Below, piece after piece: positions 3,009 through 58,431 of a DNA stretch of 64,000 nt. Every line of letters begins with the position of its first letter. The first letter of the stretch is position 1. The notes under the pieces are model-generated. The model did no database searches, had not been told where the DNA came from, and saw only the letters and a program-made list of their open reading frames with translations. Origin of the DNA: a virus; the IMG/VR virus record IMGVR_UViG_3300033153_008183, positions 16,918-80,917 of that record; one strand, given 5' to 3'. The position numbers and the translations under genes are program-made.

Positions 3009-3021
3009 TTATAAATTCCTC

Positions 3022-3480
3022 TCATAAAATTGTTCCTTGTACCCCAGCAGCTGTTAAACTATCTAAAGCAATTTGTGTAATCACTGCATCTGTTGTTAAA
3101 TCATAACCTGCAGGATAATCTGCAGCATATGTAACATATGTAGCTCCATAAAAATAAAGTAATATTTGTTTTATTTCTGGAATAGTACCTGAGACAGATA
3201 ATCCAACTTTAACTTCTATTTTATCTCTATACTCATCATCAGTTTCGGTTATATCCAATCTCCGGGAAACATCCCAGATTCTGCCTATAATGGTTAATTC
3301 TATTCCTTCAGCAGTAGTTATAATAAACTTATCTCTTATCTCAAAAAAAGTAGTCTGCAGTTCCATATTGGTTGTTGCTATAATATTAAAAATCTTTTTA
3401 AAGTCTTCACTATCTTTAAATCTTTCAATTAAAAGAGAAAGAGCAATTGTAGAATAATCAATACTTTCAAGCTCTGCCAT
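3022..3480 (-). CDS. Baseplate wedge protein, DUF2612-like (paralog 1)
   Basis: TAEGIELTIIG.IW and TDDEYR; aligns along its length with 2469..3008. Confidence 0.7.
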   Translation of the reverse strand: MAELESIDYSTIALSLLIERFKDSEDFKKIFNIIATTNMELQTTFFEIRDKFIITTAEGIELTIIGRIWDVSRRLDITETDDEYRDKIEVKVGLSVSGTIPEIKQILLYFYGATYVTYAADYPAGYDLTTDAVITQIALDSLTAAGVQGTIL

Positions 3481-54582: not shown

Positions 54583-55470
54583 ATGAAATGGGATACAGTA
54601 CGTTTCTGTCAAGATTATCGCATTAGATATACTGTTAGCAGACGCTGGCACCAGACCGACTGTCCATGGTGCGGAAATAATTCATTGAAGGCCGGTTTCA
54701 GTCTTGGAGGTGGTACTTTCAGCTGTTTTGTCTGTTCTTCTCACCCAGTCTCACAAACTGTAGCAAGAATGTTACTCTGTTCTGAAGCAGAAGCTATTGA
54801 AATTATACAAAATTACCAGGGAAGTTACTCTACTGCTAATATACTCACAGATGAGCAAGTTTCAGCGTCTATTGTGGATCTTCCTGGACGTAAGAAAATG
54901 CGTAAAAAACATAGACTATATCTGGAAGGGCGTGGATTTGATCCTGATGAGCTTACAAAGGAATGGAGCTTACGTTTCACCGGACCAGCTGCTGAGTATG
55001 GTTGGGAGTGGAGAATTATATTTCCTATCTTTCATAAGAATGAACTGGTGTCGTATCAAGGTAGAGATGTCACAAACAATGAAGGTGTGATTAGATATCG
55101 GGGTGCTCGTATTGAAGATAGTAAAATTCACTATAAGAAGCTATTGTACGGCATTGAGAAATGTAGAAACAATACAGTCGTTGTAGTTGAAGGCATTTTT
55201 GACATGTTCAATTTTGGGCCGGGAGCAGTGACTGCCTTCGGTACAAGTCTAACTCTATCCCAGGTCAGATTATTAGCTGAATTAGAAAGGGTGGTCTTCC
55301 TTTTTGATCCTGATGATCCTCTGGCATGGAAGAAAGCAAAGAAATATGTTCTGGAGTTAAGAACATTAGGTGTAAAAGCAGAAAGAATAAGGTATGATGG
55401 TGGAGATCCTGGTAGTTTATCCAGAGATGAAGTTCGTTATTTACGTAAATACATAGGTTTTGGAGGATAA
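54583..55470 (+). CDS. DNA primase (Zn finger + Toprim)
   Basis: CPWC, CFVC, RIIFPI..SYQGR, VVEGIFD, FDPD, GDP; RBS aagga before MKWD. Confidence 0.88.
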   Translation: MKWDTVRFCQDYRIRYTVSRRWHQTDCPWCGNNSLKAGFSLGGGTFSCFVCSSHPVSQTVARMLLCSEAEAIEIIQNYQGSYSTANILTDEQVSASIVDLPGRKKMRKKHRLYLEGRGFDPDELTKEWSLRFTGPAAEYGWEWRIIFPIFHKNELVSYQGRDVTNNEGVIRYRGARIEDSKIHYKKLLYGIEKCRNNTVVVVEGIFDMFNFGPGAVTAFGTSLTLSQVRLLAELERVVFLFDPDDPLAWKKAKKYVLELRTLGVKAERIRYDGGDPGSLSRDEVRYLRKYIGFGG

Positions 55471-55471
55471 T

Positions 55472-55612
55472 ATGCAAATTATATGTGCTAATTGTGCTTA
55501 TCTTGAAAAATGTGCTTTACCTAAAGATAAGGTTTGTCCCGCTTTTATTTTTAAAAGAAGAGTAGATGACAAACCTGTTATTGTAAGAACAAATAGAGTT
55601 AGAAAGGATTAA
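55472..55612 (+). CDS. 46-aa Cys-rich protein (not in ORF track)
   Basis: MQIICANCAYLEKC...VCPAF; RBS ggagg. Confidence 0.55.
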   Translation: MQIICANCAYLEKCALPKDKVCPAFIFKRRVDDKPVIVRTNRVRKD

Positions 55613-55760
55613 TAATCCAGTAGGGGATTTTTAAATTGGAGCAATAGGCATTGCTTTTATTTTGATAATGGTAAACAGAGTGTAAAAGATTCGCTGTTGC
55701 CATCTTTGCACTTGCACTCAGGGGGCCTGCTACCCCTGTTTTATTTATAAAAAGGAGCTA

Positions 55761-56225
55761 ATGATGAAAAAGAAAATTTTAATTATTTTATTCACTTGTA
55801 TTTTAATAGGAATTTTAACAGCTGAAGGTTTAGATAAATGGGGAACTACTATACATAATCAAGTGCCAAATGCTTATGCTGTAATTAAAGAAGCTGCTAT
55901 TGCTAAATGGGAAGGTAATCACACAATGATTTTATTTGAAATAAATCAGCAATCAAAAGCAGCAATAGCTTCTGTGAACACAATAATTGCATTTATTAAA
56001 ACAACTTCTGGTAATACTACAGCTGTAATAGGGTCTAAAGAATTCAATATTTTTAAAGCTGCTGTAGATAAATGGTCTTTTCCAGGTAAATCACATCAGA
56101 ACATGTTAATTCTGGATGATTGGATGTATGGTGGAGATATTTTTCCTGTGTATGCAATGTATGTGAATTGGACAATGGTAGAGTTTGAGTATGTGAATCA
56201 AACAAAAGCTTTAAATAGTTATTGA
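55761..56225 (+). CDS. Exported protein with signal peptide and internal duplication
   Basis: MKKKILIILFTCILIGILTA; KW...TM..FE..Q.KA twice. Confidence 0.65.
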   Translation: MMKKKILIILFTCILIGILTAEGLDKWGTTIHNQVPNAYAVIKEAAIAKWEGNHTMILFEINQQSKAAIASVNTIIAFIKTTSGNTTAVIGSKEFNIFKAAVDKWSFPGKSHQNMLILDDWMYGGDIFPVYAMYVNWTMVEFEYVNQTKALNSY

Positions 56226-56237
56226 TTTATTTAATAC

Positions 56238-56266
56238 TTGATGTTTCAACTCGTCTGTGTTATATT
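56238..56266 (+). promoter_or_regulatory. Extended -10 sigma70-type promoter of initiator operon
   Basis: TTGATG-17-TATATT with TGn before -10. Confidence 0.55.
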
Positions 56267-56324
56267 TGAAGAATAAGCAAAATAAGCTTATACCATAGAG
56301 TACCTTTACCGAACCAAAGGTATT

Positions 56325-56448
56325 AGAAAAATAAGAGCGTTGTGTTAAGTGGGGGGTGTAAAAACCCGGTTCGGCCCACTTAACAGAGAAAAATAAGAGC
56401 GTTGTGTTAAGTGGGGGGTGTAAAAACCCGGTTCGGCCCACTTAACAG
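56325..56448 (+). repeat. Exact 62-bp tandem duplication of a hairpin/junction element
   Basis: agaaaaataagagcgttgtgttaagtggggggtgtaaaaacccggttcggcccacttaacag x2. Confidence 0.95.
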
Positions 56449-56475
56449 AACGCTTTTTTATGTCCTGGGGGCAAT

Positions 56476-56748
56476 ATGAGTAGAGAAGATGTTATAATTT
56501 CACAGAGAGTTCAACCATTTGTGTCTATTGATCATAAGGTTCTTGAAGAATGCCGGAAAAGAGGTCCAGCTACTCCAAACATGCTTCTTACTTATTTTGT
56601 CCTGCAGGAGATGGATTCTAAAAATGAATGGTTTGATGATGTAACTGCAGAACTTAAGCTGGCTGAACTATCAGGTTTAGATCACCCTACTGTATCAAAG
56701 ATACTTAATGAGTTTGACTTAATGGGGGTCTTCAATGAAGAAGGTTAA
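56476..56748 (+). CDS. Small wHTH-like protein
   Basis: LLTYFVL...LAELSGLDHPTVSKILNEFDLMG. Confidence 0.6.
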   Translation: MSREDVIISQRVQPFVSIDHKVLEECRKRGPATPNMLLTYFVLQEMDSKNEWFDDVTAELKLAELSGLDHPTVSKILNEFDLMGVFNEEG

Positions 56749-58273
56749 AAGAGATCCAAAGAAACAACCTTTTGCCTGGCAGGAAAAACACATTTTAAGA
56801 TTGATACAAAAAACATTCGAAGGAACTGAGTTATCCCGGTATTTATTATTGTATCAGACACTCACACACCTCTACAGCGACTTTAATGGTACCCCTATCA
56901 AATACTTCACAAAAGTTATTCACACGTACTCAGGGCTCTCCATGAGATTTATCCCTGAAGGCATTAGAACATTTCAGGAATTCGGAATTGTAAAGATAAC
57001 CGGATTAAAAGAAGACCATACTTTTATCACTAAAGTATTAACATTTACCCCTGAGAATATACCGGAAAGTACAGAATCATTTCTTAATGCCGAAACCAAC
57101 AATTGTAACAAATCAACAATTGTTAAAAAGGCTGCACTTATAGAACATAGTCTAAGAAAAGAATCAGTAGATTCTTTACCATCTTCTTCGAAGAACGGGA
57201 AAAAACCAAAAAGAAAAGTTTCTTCCTCGGTAAGAATGGATAAAGCTCCCGATGATATAGCTACAAACTTTCTGACCGGCTCTTCGAGAAAATCTCAGCT
57301 TTTTGATAAAGTAGTATCTGTTGCGAAAGAAGTTAATGCTCAATGTAAACATCCCGCTTTTTCAATTCCACAATCCCCGGATACTAAATATTTGAAGACC
57401 CTAGCAAAACAAATTAAATTATTGCAGGCCGGAAAATTTATTTCCAACCATACCTGGATGCCATTTTTTGATAGGGAAAAGTTTCCCGGTGATGATTTAA
57501 AGGGAGCTTCTGATGAAGAAGTTTGGGAAATGATTGAATTTTCTATAACAAAATATATTCGGGTTAGAGAGAATGGTAAATATTTATTTTATGGAAATCG
57601 AAATGCAATAATAAACATATCTGAGTTTATGTATATTTCTTATCAGGCTTTGAGACCTCCTGAACCTGGAGTAAGAACTCCGGATGGTTACAGTTGGTTT
57701 TGGCAGTATCTTCTACCATTGAGAAAATCTTCTCAATCTACAATAGAATTTGATGCCAGGATTAAAGAACTTTATAAAAAATCAAGTACCGTATTAGGAA
57801 AAGAAATCTATAATGATTATGAGACTCTAGCACTTTCTGAGAAAATTAGATTTTGTAAAAGTCTTATTGCTATGGGAAAATATTACCAGAGTAACCAGAA
57901 AGTACTTCTTAAAAATAATGCAGAAGCTGTTCTGGTAATTCCTAATTTGAAAAAGTTATTTAAGTTTTATGCGAAGTGGATTAAACGGTCTGGCTTTAAA
58001 CATGTCCCCGGGGTATATCCGGGAGAAGATGGACGCTGGATTGATTTTGTTAATTGGTTGAAGAAAGATTATGGAGTGGATCTTGAAGCTATCCATAAAT
58101 CTAAACCAAAGAAAAAGAAAGAAACATATGTGGAGCCGGAAATGTCTGAAGAAGAAGCTTATGAAAGATCGATACTCGGAGTTCTTTACGATGTTTTAGA
58201 TCCGGATGAAAGATTACATAAACTTAAGTTGTGGTTTAGAGCACAACACCAGGAAAAAATGGAGAGTATTTAA
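56735..58273 (+). CDS. Replication initiator-like protein (N-terminal wHTH, origin-like linker)
   Basis: PFAW..K, LYQTL, YSGLS...GI..FQEFGIV; linker holds CAACAATTGT repeats; lies among primase and helicase genes. Confidence 0.6.
   Translation: MKKVKRDPKKQPFAWQEKHILRLIQKTFEGTELSRYLLLYQTLTHLYSDFNGTPIKYFTKVIHTYSGLSMRFIPEGIRTFQEFGIVKITGLKEDHTFITKVLTFTPENIPESTESFLNAETNNCNKSTIVKKAALIEHSLRKESVDSLPSSSKNGKKPKRKVSSSVRMDKAPDDIATNFLTGSSRKSQLFDKVVSVAKEVNAQCKHPAFSIPQSPDTKYLKTLAKQIKLLQAGKFISNHTWMPFFDREKFPGDDLKGASDEEVWEMIEFSITKYIRVRENGKYLFYGNRNAIINISEFMYISYQALRPPEPGVRTPDGYSWFWQYLLPLRKSSQSTIEFDARIKELYKKSSTVLGKEIYNDYETLALSEKIRFCKSLIAMGKYYQSNQKVLLKNNAEAVLVIPNLKKLFKFYAKWIKRSGFKHVPGVYPGEDGRWIDFVNWLKKDYGVDLEAIHKSKPKKKKETYVEPEMSEEEAYERSILGVLYDVLDPDERLHKLKLWFRAQHQEKMESI
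57093..57240 (+). other. Candidate replication origin inside initiator gene
   Basis: CAACAATTGT at 57097 and 57114 followed by AT-rich stretch; conserved as non-coding copy at 39.5 kb. Confidence 0.55.
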
Positions 58274-58431
58274 TGGGTAAATTATCAGAAGAAGTAAAAG
58301 CAGCAAGAGCTAAAGAAAGAGCTGAGAAAAGAGCAGCTAAACAGAAAAGAGAAAGAAAAATTAAGTCTACTATTAAAGTTCAAAAATTAAAAAGAAAATT
58401 AAGATTAAGATTAAGAAGAAGGAAAAAATAG
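58273..58431 (+). CDS. 52-aa extremely basic protein (not in ORF track)
   Basis: MGKLSEEVKAARAKERAEKR...KRKLRLRLRRRKK; TAATG coupling. Confidence 0.55.
   Translation: MGKLSEEVKAARAKERAEKRAAKQKRERKIKSTIKVQKLKRKLRLRLRRRKK

What the first reader, a model, noticed from the sequence alone, without database searches (positions are those of the whole stretch)
56238..56460. CI/C4-like antisense immunity architecture controlling the initiator operon
Seen in order: promoter; hairpin TACCTTT-ACCGAACC-AAAGGTA (56301-22); a 62-bp unit in two exact copies folding TGTTAAGTGGG / CCCACTTAACA around GGGT-gtaaaa-ACCC and a GGTTCG bulge; closing AGCGTT / AACGCT and a T run; then wHTH and initiator genes. Loop CCGAACC is the exact complement of GGTTCGG (56368 and 56430), and adjacent TTTAC complements the GTAAA loop. 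Established: P4 CI and P1 C4 RNAs use a loop and a bulge to pair with targets in their own transcript and cause termination. Inference: RNA-based replication or immunity control, hinting at a plasmid-like or carrier state in a phage with no integrase in view.
Basis: partly seen in the sequence, partly recalled or inferred. Interest (0 to 1): 0.72.

Follow-up and report, generated by a model that had tools for sequence, protein, structure and literature searches.

The report
Self-pairing terminator leader RNA in phage
In front of a phage's replication-region genes lies a folded leader RNA that ends in a transcription stop signal and whose first hairpin tip base-pairs with a bulge inside that signal; three related phages keep this pairing with entirely different letters, so the pairing is real, but nothing shows it is an immunity system.

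Summary
Observation confirmed: promoter (56238-66), hairpin P1 (56301-22), two exact 62-bp copies (56325-86, 56387-448), closing stem plus T-run (to 56459), and the P1 loop CCGAACC complementary to GGTTCGG in both copies.

The only three independent relatives whose upstream DNA I could obtain (L002=L011, L005, L006) share the design. It runs: conserved promoter, 5' hairpin, Y-shaped intrinsic terminator, ribosome site. In each, the hairpin loop complements the whole 6-8-nt bulge, with unrelated letters. Of 144 pairs, 131 are Watson-Crick, 13 G-U and none mismatched, so this is a plus-strand RNA.

The 62-bp duplication occurs only in this genome. No reads could be found to verify it.

It is not a member of the C4, isrK or any other Rfam family. 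It has no downstream target site. The complete 80.9-kb genome shows no integrase, resolvase, ParA or ParB. 'Immunity' is therefore unsupported.

Best reading: a pseudoknotted leader/attenuator gating a winged-helix plus 512-aa gene operon. A CI/IsrK-like action in trans is not excluded.

This scan's unchecked notes describe the same design in other phage genomes.

The parts
56238..56266 (+). Sigma-70-type promoter: TTGATG, 17-nt spacer, TATATT, with TG before the -10. The transcript probably starts near 56272.
   Evidence: The same -35 (TTGAT) and a TG-extended -10 at the same spacing can be read in L002, L005 and L006.
56273..56292 (+). 5'-terminal hairpin P0 (AUAAGC / GCUUAU). Not part of the conserved core.
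   Evidence: Predicted. A counterpart appears only in L005.
56301..56322 (+). Hairpin P1: 7-bp stem and 8-nt loop ACCGAACC. Loop bases 56309-56315 form the 5' strand of the long-range pairing.
   Evidence: (I17, I18, I19).
56325..56386 (+). Repeat copy 1. It holds the A-rich linker, the 5' strand of the outer stem (56336-41), inner stem P3 (56343-53 / 56375-85), small hairpin P4 (56354-67) and bulge GGUUCGG (56368-74). It has no 3' outer strand and no U-run, so it is not a terminator by itself.
   Evidence: (D1, I3).
56387..56448 (+). Repeat copy 2, identical to copy 1: outer-stem 5' strand 56398-403, P3 56405-15 / 56437-47, P4 56416-29, bulge 56430-36.
56449..56459 (+). 3' strand of the outer stem P2 (AACGCU, 56449-54) and a run of six U (56454-59). 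Together with copy 2 this forms a Y-shaped intrinsic terminator.
   Evidence: The simple terminator scan does not list it, because that scan allows loops of only 3-8 nt.
56467..56478 (+). Ribosome-binding site GGGGG (56467-71) and ATG (56476-78) of the first gene, 8 nt after the U-run.
   Evidence: Relatives have GGAGG at the same place.
56476..56748 (+). 90-aa protein with a predicted winged-helix-type DNA-binding fold.
   Evidence: AF2 mean pLDDT 76.5. VIA-align top rows are PerR/Fur, DnaD-N and Lrp DNA-binding domains, Z 6-7.5. No Pfam or PHROG match. Conserved at 46-60% identity in the three relatives.
56735..58273 (+). 512-aa protein of unknown family. The N-terminal ~110-160 aa form a widespread, probably winged-helix domain. 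The role as replication initiator is not shown.

Best explanation
This is a promoter-proximal, non-coding leader RNA on the + strand. A conserved host-type promoter starts a transcript that first forms a small hairpin (P1). It then forms a Y-shaped intrinsic terminator: outer stem P2, inner stem P3, a small side hairpin P4 and a 6-8-nt bulge, followed by a U-run. The ribosome site of the first gene follows 8-40 nt later, so RNA polymerase must read through this terminator to express the winged-helix gene, the 512-aa gene and the helicase genes behind them. The whole bulge pairs with the apex of P1 and turns the bulge into the third arm of a fully paired three-way junction. Shown: the structure and the pairing are under selection. 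Inferred: the pairing forms mainly within one molecule, as a pseudoknot. The partners are only 65-100 nt apart, the P1-to-terminator linker is 12-13 nt in three of four sequences, and the bulge emerges just before the terminator closes. Also inferred: the pseudoknot sets how much transcription stops or reads through, possibly as the handle for a still unknown factor. The 62-bp duplication in this genome is a recent, lineage-specific addition. It places a non-terminating decoy copy at the ancestral distance from P1 and leaves a second bulge unpaired.
For: Four independent sequences show the same order of parts, although the intergenic letters are unrelated: window, L002 (identical to L011), L005 and L006. 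They were found through the 512-aa protein at 69-79% identity. In the helix table all 20 helices are intact: 131 Watson-Crick, 13 G-U and 0 mismatches in 144 pairs. The 13 G-U pairs would be C-A mismatches on the other strand. The + strand also folds better than the - strand in all four: z -6.84, -3.20, -4.51, -5.65 against -5.19, -1.88, -2.74, -3.72. Loop-bulge pairing is 7, 7, 8 and 6 pairs, covers the entire bulge each time, and uses four unrelated sequences. Shuffled leaders reach the observed complement in 18, 80, 2 and 942 of 20000 trials. Predicted duplex energies are -13.0, -12.5, -11.6 and -7.7 kcal/mol. In transcripts cut just after the bulge, the minimum-energy fold already contains this pairing in 3 of 4 (not L006). 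U-runs of 6-8 follow the outer stem directly. The -35 and the TG-extended -10 are the only conserved letters upstream. No sigma-70-type promoter lies between terminator and start codon, and no antisense promoter lies inside the element. A covariance model built from L002/L011 alone finds L006 (E 7.5e-5) and the window (E 7e-4) and nothing else in 116810 bases.
Against: There are only four independent sequences, all from one narrow clade. Three further relatives (P0002, P0004, P0005) could not be inspected. There is no RNA or read data, so the start, the stop and read-through are all predicted. The helices were assigned by hand from single-sequence folds. On the automatic MAFFT alignment, RNAalifold recovers only P3 (11 pairs, 4 with changes on both sides), because the other helices are out of register. 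The model did not find L005, whose stems have different lengths and whose pairing is the weakest (5 Watson-Crick pairs plus 1 G-U; 942 of 20000 shuffles). P1 of L002 is weak (5 pairs, 2 of them G-U) and has an alternative form. The shuffle test used bulge and leader limits that I chose after seeing the folds. No conserved alternative antiterminator fold was found, so how the pairing would change termination is not explained. In the window the duplication separates P1 from the real terminator by 62 nt more, which a strictly in-cis mechanism does not predict.
Confidence: 0.5

Rival explanations
1. The RNA targets itself in trans, working like P4 CI, P1 C4 or Gifsy-1 IsrK. The short terminated leader, or its terminator hairpin freed by cleavage in the A/U-rich linker, accumulates. 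Through its bulge it binds the P1 loop of nascent leaders from the same phage type. This changes termination or read-through, so the replication-region operon senses the dose of its own leader. The fast-changing pairing letters would act as a strain-specific address.
For: Both partners are displayed the way antisense recognition elements are: a hairpin apex, and a bulge framed by helices. The pairing letters have turned over completely between phages whose flanking proteins are 46-80% identical. In this genome the duplication gives two bulges for one loop, so one bulge must stay free for another molecule. Precedent read in passages of PMC4825925: IsrK exists as a short terminated form that acts in trans on its own read-through mRNA, and P4 CI pairs with seqA upstream and seqC downstream of itself.
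Against: The partners sit on the same molecule 65-100 nt apart, so intramolecular pairing should win unless processing separates them, and no processing is shown. There is no second target downstream of the terminator or elsewhere. CCGAACC and GGTTCGG each occur 3 times in 80917 bases, against 1.6 and 1.3 expected, and the 10-mer complement search gave 44 matches against about 30 expected, none in loop or bulge. There is no match to C4 or isrK models. Complete turnover of non-coding letters is also expected from neutral drift at this protein divergence.
Confidence: 0.25
2. It is a stand-alone small RNA gene with its own promoter and terminator. The operon behind it would be expressed independently of the fold.
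For: There is a complete promoter-to-terminator unit of roughly 115-190 nt with strong predicted terminators. No conserved unpaired nucleotides point to a small-molecule pocket. Complementary loop and bulge that covary between relatives are also the hallmark of phi29-type pRNA (recalled, not tested).
Against: The first gene's ribosome site follows the U-run by only 8-40 nt in all four sequences, and no promoter lies in between. Downstream expression is therefore physically tied to this terminator. No partner or other target was found. The position among replication genes of an 81-kb terminase-type phage does not fit a packaging RNA.
Confidence: 0.13
3. It is a DNA-level element. The inverted and tandem repeats would be operators or iterons bound by the neighbouring winged-helix proteins, or a replication origin.
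For: It lies directly upstream of two putative DNA-binding proteins inside the replication module. It has four half-sites of an 11-bp palindrome and a tandem repeat.
Against: The relatives have one copy, not repeats, and the palindrome letters are not conserved although the 90-aa protein is 46-60% identical. What is conserved is pairing, including 13 G-U pairs that are mismatches on the other strand and in duplex-symmetry terms. A U-run follows on one strand only.
Confidence: 0.05
4. The 62-bp duplication is an assembly artefact and the true genome has one copy. This concerns the duplication only, not the element.
For: It is a single metagenome-derived record. All relatives have one copy. No reads could be obtained.
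Against: Inference: de Bruijn assemblers collapse tandem repeats rather than create an exact second copy from single-copy sequence, and a 124-bp tract is shorter than common read lengths.
Confidence: 0.15

Closest known systems
Satellite phage P4 CI RNA with seqA/seqB/seqC
   Same: An untranslated leader of the replication-gene operon carries a sequence that pairs with a complement lying upstream in the same transcript, and the outcome is premature transcription termination (passage read in PMC4825925; structural details recalled).
   Different: P4 also has a downstream target (seqC), CI is cut out of the primary transcript, and the system maintains immunity of a lysogen or plasmid. Here there is no downstream target, processing is unknown, and no lysogeny or partition gene was found. 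The pairing partner sits inside the terminator hairpin itself.
Phage P1/P7 C4 antisense RNA (Rfam RF01695)
   Same: A sense-strand leader RNA whose exposed loops pair with sites in its own operon transcript (recalled).
   Different: No match to the C4 model at E<=10 in the whole genome or locally. C4's functional targets cover the ribosome site of the next gene (recalled), whereas here the ribosome site is not complementary to loop or bulge.
IsrK of Salmonella prophage Gifsy-1 (Rfam RF01394)
   Same: A promoter-proximal RNA ends in a Rho-independent terminator that is partly read through into the downstream genes. The short form and the long form share the same 5' part (abstract and passages of PMC4825925).
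   Different: IsrK acts by opening a translation-blocking fold in the read-through mRNA. There is no match to the isrK model, and no sequestration of the ribosome site is predicted here.
Lambdoid late unit PR' - 6S RNA - tR' released by Q (recalled)
   Same: A constitutive promoter makes a short terminated RNA, and genes behind the terminator are expressed only when termination is overcome.
   Different: No Q-like factor or binding site was identified here. The lambda 6S leader is not known to me to have a covarying loop-bulge contact.
IncI-alpha / IncB plasmid repZ (repA) leader pseudoknot
   Same: A long-range pairing between a hairpin loop and a distal site in the leader of a replication gene is the regulated step (passage read in PMC8053102).
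   Different: There the pseudoknot activates translation, and an antisense RNA from the opposite strand blocks it. Here the partner is in a terminator, and no antisense promoter was found.

Membership tests
C4 antisense RNA family (Rfam RF01695; P1/P7 c4) | Match to the family's covariance model | tested here: not met
   0 matches at E<=10 in the 80917-base genome. 0 matches of any family at gathering score in the window. C4 is not among the 6 weak local matches at E<=10.
C4 antisense RNA family (Rfam RF01695; P1/P7 c4) | Target sites downstream in the same transcript that cover the next gene's ribosome site (feature recalled) | tested here: not met
   No further copy of either 7-mer lies between 56437 and the start codon. 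Genome-wide the counts are 3 and 3.
P4 CI RNA immunity system | Complement to the effector sequence upstream in the same transcript (seqA-like) | tested here: met
   The P1 loop is complementary to the whole bulge in 4 of 4 sequences.
P4 CI RNA immunity system | Second complement downstream (seqC-like) | tested here: not met
P4 CI RNA immunity system | Effector released by processing of the primary transcript | not testable with these tools
   No sequencing run was listed.
P4 CI RNA immunity system | Belongs to a temperate or plasmid-forming element whose immunity it maintains | tested here: not met
   PF00589, PF00239, PF02195 and PF13614 each gave 0 matches at E<=0.01 in a record rated 100% complete with terminal repeats. 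Only these four markers were tried.
isrK (Rfam RF01394) | Match to the family's covariance model | tested here: not met
   0 matches at E<=10; 8 candidates were scored.
Intrinsic terminator / transcription-attenuating leader | Stable G+C-containing stem directly followed by a U-run, placed between a promoter and the first ribosome site | tested here: met
   Outer plus inner stems of 16-18 pairs are followed by U6-U8 in 4 of 4. Promoter. Ribosome site 8 nt after the U-run.
Intrinsic terminator / transcription-attenuating leader | A competing antiterminator fold | tested here: inconclusive
   Folds of truncated transcripts show the loop-bulge pairing forming early in 3 of 4, but no conserved competitor for the terminator strands.
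RNA pseudoknot / kissing contact | Both strands change between relatives and stay complementary | tested here: met
   Four unrelated pairings of 7, 7, 8 and 6 pairs. Shuffles reach them in 18, 80, 2 and 942 of 20000.
Iterons / operator repeats (DNA-level) | Repeat number and letters conserved where the binding protein is conserved | tested here: not met
   There is a single copy with unrelated letters in L002, L005 and L006, while the 90-aa protein is 46-60% identical. 13 G-U pairs were counted.
Winged-helix DNA-binding proteins (90-aa product) | Winged-helix fold | tested here: inconclusive
   Model pLDDT 76.5. Foldseek found nothing at E<=0.001. VIA-align best rows are PerR, DnaD-N, Zur and Fur DNA-binding domains at Z 6.2-7.5, below the level the tool calls clear.
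Replication initiators (512-aa product) | Homology to a known initiator family | tested here: inconclusive
   No Pfam or PHROG match. No PDB match with profile A1. TubR at E 0.0017 matches the N-terminus only. HTH_36 and Phage_rep_O appear only as language-model leads. The AF2 model is unusable, pLDDT 35.7.

The most novel reading that the evidence does not exclude
The loop-bulge pair is a private address code. The terminated leader, which carries a spare bulge in this duplicated variant, pairs in trans with nascent leaders of the same phage type only. The replication-region operon of an apparently virulent phage would then count its own genome copies, or detect co-infecting kin, through an RNA that is at once sensor, signal and terminator. 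That would be an RNA-only dosage or kin-recognition circuit outside lysogeny. The scan's unchecked notes of the same design in other phages suggest a widespread, undescribed class of phage transcription gates.
Probability: 0.2. Interest if true: 0.8.

Novelty: new variant of a known kind. Interest (0 to 1): 0.55.

Why it matters
If the pairing controls read-through, this is a compact RNA gate on phage replication genes that matches no catalogued RNA family. Its recognition letters are free to change while its geometry is fixed. That combination suits specificity between related phages, and it could be reused as an orthogonal, programmable terminator switch. It also shows that leader-terminator units with a built-in long-range contact, known from a few temperate elements (P4, P1, Gifsy-1), occur in a phage without visible lysogeny genes. 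The natural 62-bp duplication is a ready-made variant for testing whether the contact acts in cis or in trans.

Tried and rejected
Searches for relatives that found little or nothing:
- Nucleotide similarity of 55700-58300 to the phage and plasmid collections: no match.
- tblastn of the 512-aa protein and of the primase against phage records: no match.
- Exact search for the 43-nt hairpin in viral contigs: 0.
- Protein-guided scans of viral contigs with the 512-aa protein alone, with alignment A1, with the 90-aa alignment and with the primase alignment. These gave only L011/L012/L013, which are the same contig as L002's sequence, and two distant phages (L014, L015) that lack the gene pair.
- Genome contigs with A2 and A1: none.
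- Distant N-terminal-domain relatives L007-L010, and L014: their upstream regions do not show the design.

Other negative or limited results:
- Sequencing runs: none was listed, and no RNA holder was listed. Neither expression nor the duplication could be examined, and read laying was not used.
- RNAalifold on the MAFFT alignment A6 recovers only P3. I could not load a hand-made alignment, so the count of structure pairs was not used, and the pair counts come from my script.
- The covariance model missed L005 and aligned the window with copy 1 in place of P1.
- A script scan of the whole genome for other terminators with an upstream complement gave 7 candidates. Only this locus had a strong hairpin (-31.9 kcal/mol), so the design is not repeated in this phage.
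- TTTAC/GTAAA as a second contact is rejected as unproven. It needs the P1 stem to open, it is not colinear with the main pairing, and it is A/U-rich.
- The T-loop or tRNA-like reading of GGTTCGG is rejected because relatives have unrelated letters there.
- A riboswitch is unlikely because no unpaired nucleotides are conserved.
- The minus-strand ORF 56211-56441 is taken as spurious.
- The structure of the 512-aa protein was unusable.

Literature:
- Four searches on P4/C4/IncI and two on the design itself were made.
- Of the last two I saw only the listings, which name no paper on a hairpin loop pairing with a terminator bulge in phage leaders.
- The original P4, P1 and phi29 pRNA papers are not in the library and are cited from recall.
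- Supplements were not opened.

Full report
WHAT IS THERE. The window is bases 16918-80917 of an 80917-base virus record with direct terminal repeats (114 bp by my check), rated 100% complete. From about 41000 onward all genes run on the + strand. Around the finding lie a sigma-70-region-2 protein (53461), a DnaG-type primase (54487), a small Cys-rich ORF (55460) and a 154-aa protein (55761). After the element come a 90-aa gene (56476), a 512-aa gene (56735), an SNF2-type helicase (58492) and a DnaB-like helicase (62735).

- a TTGATG-17-TATATT promoter with TG before the -10 (56238-66);
- hairpin P1 (56301-22);
- two exact 62-nt copies (56325-86, 56387-448);
- an 11-bp inner stem around a 4-bp side hairpin and a 7-nt bulge;
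- a closing stem AGCGUU/AACGCU and six U (to 56459);
- GGGGG and ATG.
The P1 loop CCGAACC is the exact complement of the bulge GGUUCGG in both copies. The region folds far better than shuffles: -78 kcal/mol, z -6.84, with 0 of 200 shuffles as good.

RELATIVES. The region has no nucleotide match in the phage or plasmid collections. The 512-aa protein has four relatives at 66-80% identity among 5.8 billion clusters. A protein-guided scan of metagenome contigs gave nine loci:
- L002, L005 and L006 contain the upstream region.
- L003 and L004 are cut off.
- L007-L010 are distant, 33-39% identical to the N-terminus only.
The viral-contig hit L011 is identical to L002 there. Further scans added nothing. 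The comparison therefore rests on four independent sequences.

THE CONSERVED DESIGN. In all four, the intergenic letters are unrelated except for the promoter (TTGAT, 17 nt, TG-extended -10) and the U-run/ribosome-site junction. The order of parts is nevertheless the same: promoter, about 30-40 nt, hairpin P1, an A-rich linker (13, 12, 13 and 25 nt), and a long terminator hairpin. That hairpin has an outer stem P2 and an inner stem P3. At its top it carries a small side hairpin P4 on the 5' side and a 6-8-nt unpaired stretch on the 3' side. U6-U8 follows, then the ribosome site.

My script checked every assigned pair. The 20 helices hold 144 pairs: 131 Watson-Crick, 13 G-U and no mismatch. The G-U pairs would be C-A on the other strand. 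Each + strand also folds better than its - strand. This is therefore selection on a + strand RNA, not on a DNA palindrome.

A covariance model built from L002/L011 alone, without the long-range pairing, recovers L006 (E 7.5e-5) and the window (E 7e-4). It misses L005 and finds no other site in 116810 bases.

THE LOOP-BULGE PAIRING. The unpaired stretch in the terminator is complementary, over its entire length, to the apex of P1:
- window: CCGAACC/GGUUCGG (7 pairs);
- L002: AGUGCAU/AUGCACU (7 pairs);
- L006: CUGACGUU/AACGUCAG (8 pairs);
- L005: GUCACG/UGUGAC (6 pairs, one G-U).
Shuffling each leader reaches the observed complement in 18, 80, 2 and 942 of 20000 trials. By my arithmetic the product of these fractions is about 2e-11. 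The limits of leader and bulge were chosen after seeing the folds, so these numbers are generous.

The pairing stops exactly where the flanking helices begin and leaves no unpaired base. The bulge thus becomes the third arm of a fully paired three-way junction. Predicted duplex energies are -7.7 to -13 kcal/mol. In transcripts ended just after the bulge, the minimum-energy fold already contains this pairing in three of four.

WHAT IT IS NOT.
- No Rfam family matches at gathering score in the window. The local permissive scan gives six chance-level rows. The C4 and isrK models find nothing at E<=10 in the genome.
- There is no second target. The two 7-mers occur three times each in 80917 bases (1.6 and 1.3 expected), and the extra sites are far away. 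A 10-mer complement search gives 44 matches against about 30 expected, none in loop or bulge.
- No sigma-70-type promoter lies on the opposite strand inside the element, and none between terminator and start codon.
- The genome has no match to Phage_integrase, Resolvase, ParB_N or AAA_31. Nothing points to lysogeny, a plasmid state or immunity, although only these four markers were tried.
- Relatives have one copy of the unit, so the duplication is not part of the design.
- A whole-genome script scan for the same design finds only this locus with a strong hairpin.

THE GENES BEHIND IT. The 90-aa protein is conserved at 46-60% identity. Its model (pLDDT 76.5) is most similar to winged-helix DNA-binding domains (PerR/Fur, DnaD-N, Lrp) at Z 6-7.5, which is suggestive rather than clear.

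The 512-aa protein has no Pfam, PHROG or PDB sequence match. A profile search finds 279 representatives at E<=1e-3, almost all matching only its first 110-160 residues. Ten of these carry no Pfam domain above cut-off. A wider profile touches TubR, a winged-helix protein, at E 0.0017. Language-model neighbours carry HTH_36 or Phage_rep_O (leads only). The AF2 model is unusable. 'Initiator' is a reasonable guess from position but is not shown.

HOW IT MOST LIKELY WORKS. Shown: the structure, its strand, the terminator features, the position between promoter and ribosome site, and the selected loop-bulge pairing. Inferred: transcripts from the conserved promoter mostly end at the U-run, and the genes behind need read-through.

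I favour an intramolecular pseudoknot (0.5). The partners lie on one molecule. The linker length is kept at 12-13 nt in three of four. The bulge emerges immediately before the terminator closes, so the contact is placed to influence that step or to offer a defined shape to a factor. I could not find a competing antiterminator fold, so the direction of the effect is open.

The CI/IsrK-like alternative (0.25) has the short RNA pairing with nascent leaders in trans. It is favoured by the antisense-style display of both partners and by the spare bulge in this genome. It is disfavoured by the advantage of cis pairing and by the lack of any downstream target. What I read in PMC4825925 (abstract and passages) supports both precedents. 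PMC8053102 (passages) supplies the plasmid repZ pseudoknot precedent.

The remaining rivals are a stand-alone small RNA (0.13) and a DNA-level operator or origin (0.05).

THE DUPLICATION. Copy 1 sits at the ancestral distance from P1 but lacks the 3' outer strand and the U-run. Copy 2 carries the terminator. The repeat is exact, with one base of junction homology. It is either recent or, less likely, an assembly error. No reads were available.

NOVELTY AND SCORE. The element matches no catalogued RNA family. My two literature searches on the design (listings only) name no description of it. In kind it is a variant of leader-terminator RNAs with self-complementary sites (P4 CI, P1 C4, IsrK).

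This scan's own notes, which are AI-written and unchecked, describe the same design in other phage genomes: a first hairpin's tip pairing with an unpaired patch inside a terminator hairpin, with private letters. The notes are e1-3441540, e1-5869497, e1-5765255 and e1-6078547. I treat this as a lead that the design is recurrent, not as evidence. No look-alike of this stretch was indexed.

Interest is 0.55. The pairing is solid and testable and the architecture is unusual. Against that, there are only four sequences, no expression data and no mechanism.

Noticed in passing
window 55460-55612; L002 4443-4583; L006 2821-2967; L005 3858-4013: A small Cys-rich ORF of 46-51 aa (C-x2-C ... C ... C-P pattern, basic tail) is conserved just upstream of the element in all four relatives. 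In L002 and L006 its stop codon is only a few bases before the -35, so upstream transcripts would also run into the leader's terminator.
   Followed up: partly
window 55761-56225; L005 4019-4528: A 154-aa protein with a hydrophobic N-terminus and no Pfam or PHROG match is inserted between the Cys-rich ORF and the element in the window and L005 only. In the window it is preceded by its own terminator-like hairpin at 55719-55738. It looks like a moron-type insertion.
   Followed up: no
window 56735-57200 (N-terminal ~110-160 aa of the 512-aa protein): This domain is widespread. It has 279 representatives at E<=1e-3 in a 1.84-billion-protein library, mostly in 250-350-aa proteins, and no Pfam family above cut-off in the 10 checked. 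The 90-aa protein may be a distant paralogue of it (hhalign E 0.0028, probability 11%).
   Followed up: partly
window 57300-58140 (residues ~189-468 of the 512-aa protein): The C-terminal domain recurs in only about six representatives (P0074, P0086, P0091, P0107, P0118, P0129). One has a sub-threshold hit to an archaeo-eukaryotic primase domain (AEP_C962R, E 0.003, below cut-off). This is a lead that the protein might be a primase-polymerase-type replication protein.
   Followed up: no
window 56305-56308; L002 4633-4636; L006 4 nt in 3019-3023: In three of four sequences the four bases just 5' of the pairing strand in the P1 loop read UUUA. This fits the YUNR U-turn motif that speeds antisense loop recognition (motif recalled). 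It could also be chance in A/T-rich DNA.
   Followed up: no
window 56211-56441, minus strand: A 76-aa GTG-start ORF overlaps the whole element on the opposite strand. It is probably spurious, because it is built from the complement of the hairpins.
   Followed up: no
L010 66-2588: A distant soil relative of the N-terminal domain sits next to an integrase-like ORF and an excisionase-like HTH ORF. The domain therefore also occurs on integrative elements.
   Followed up: no
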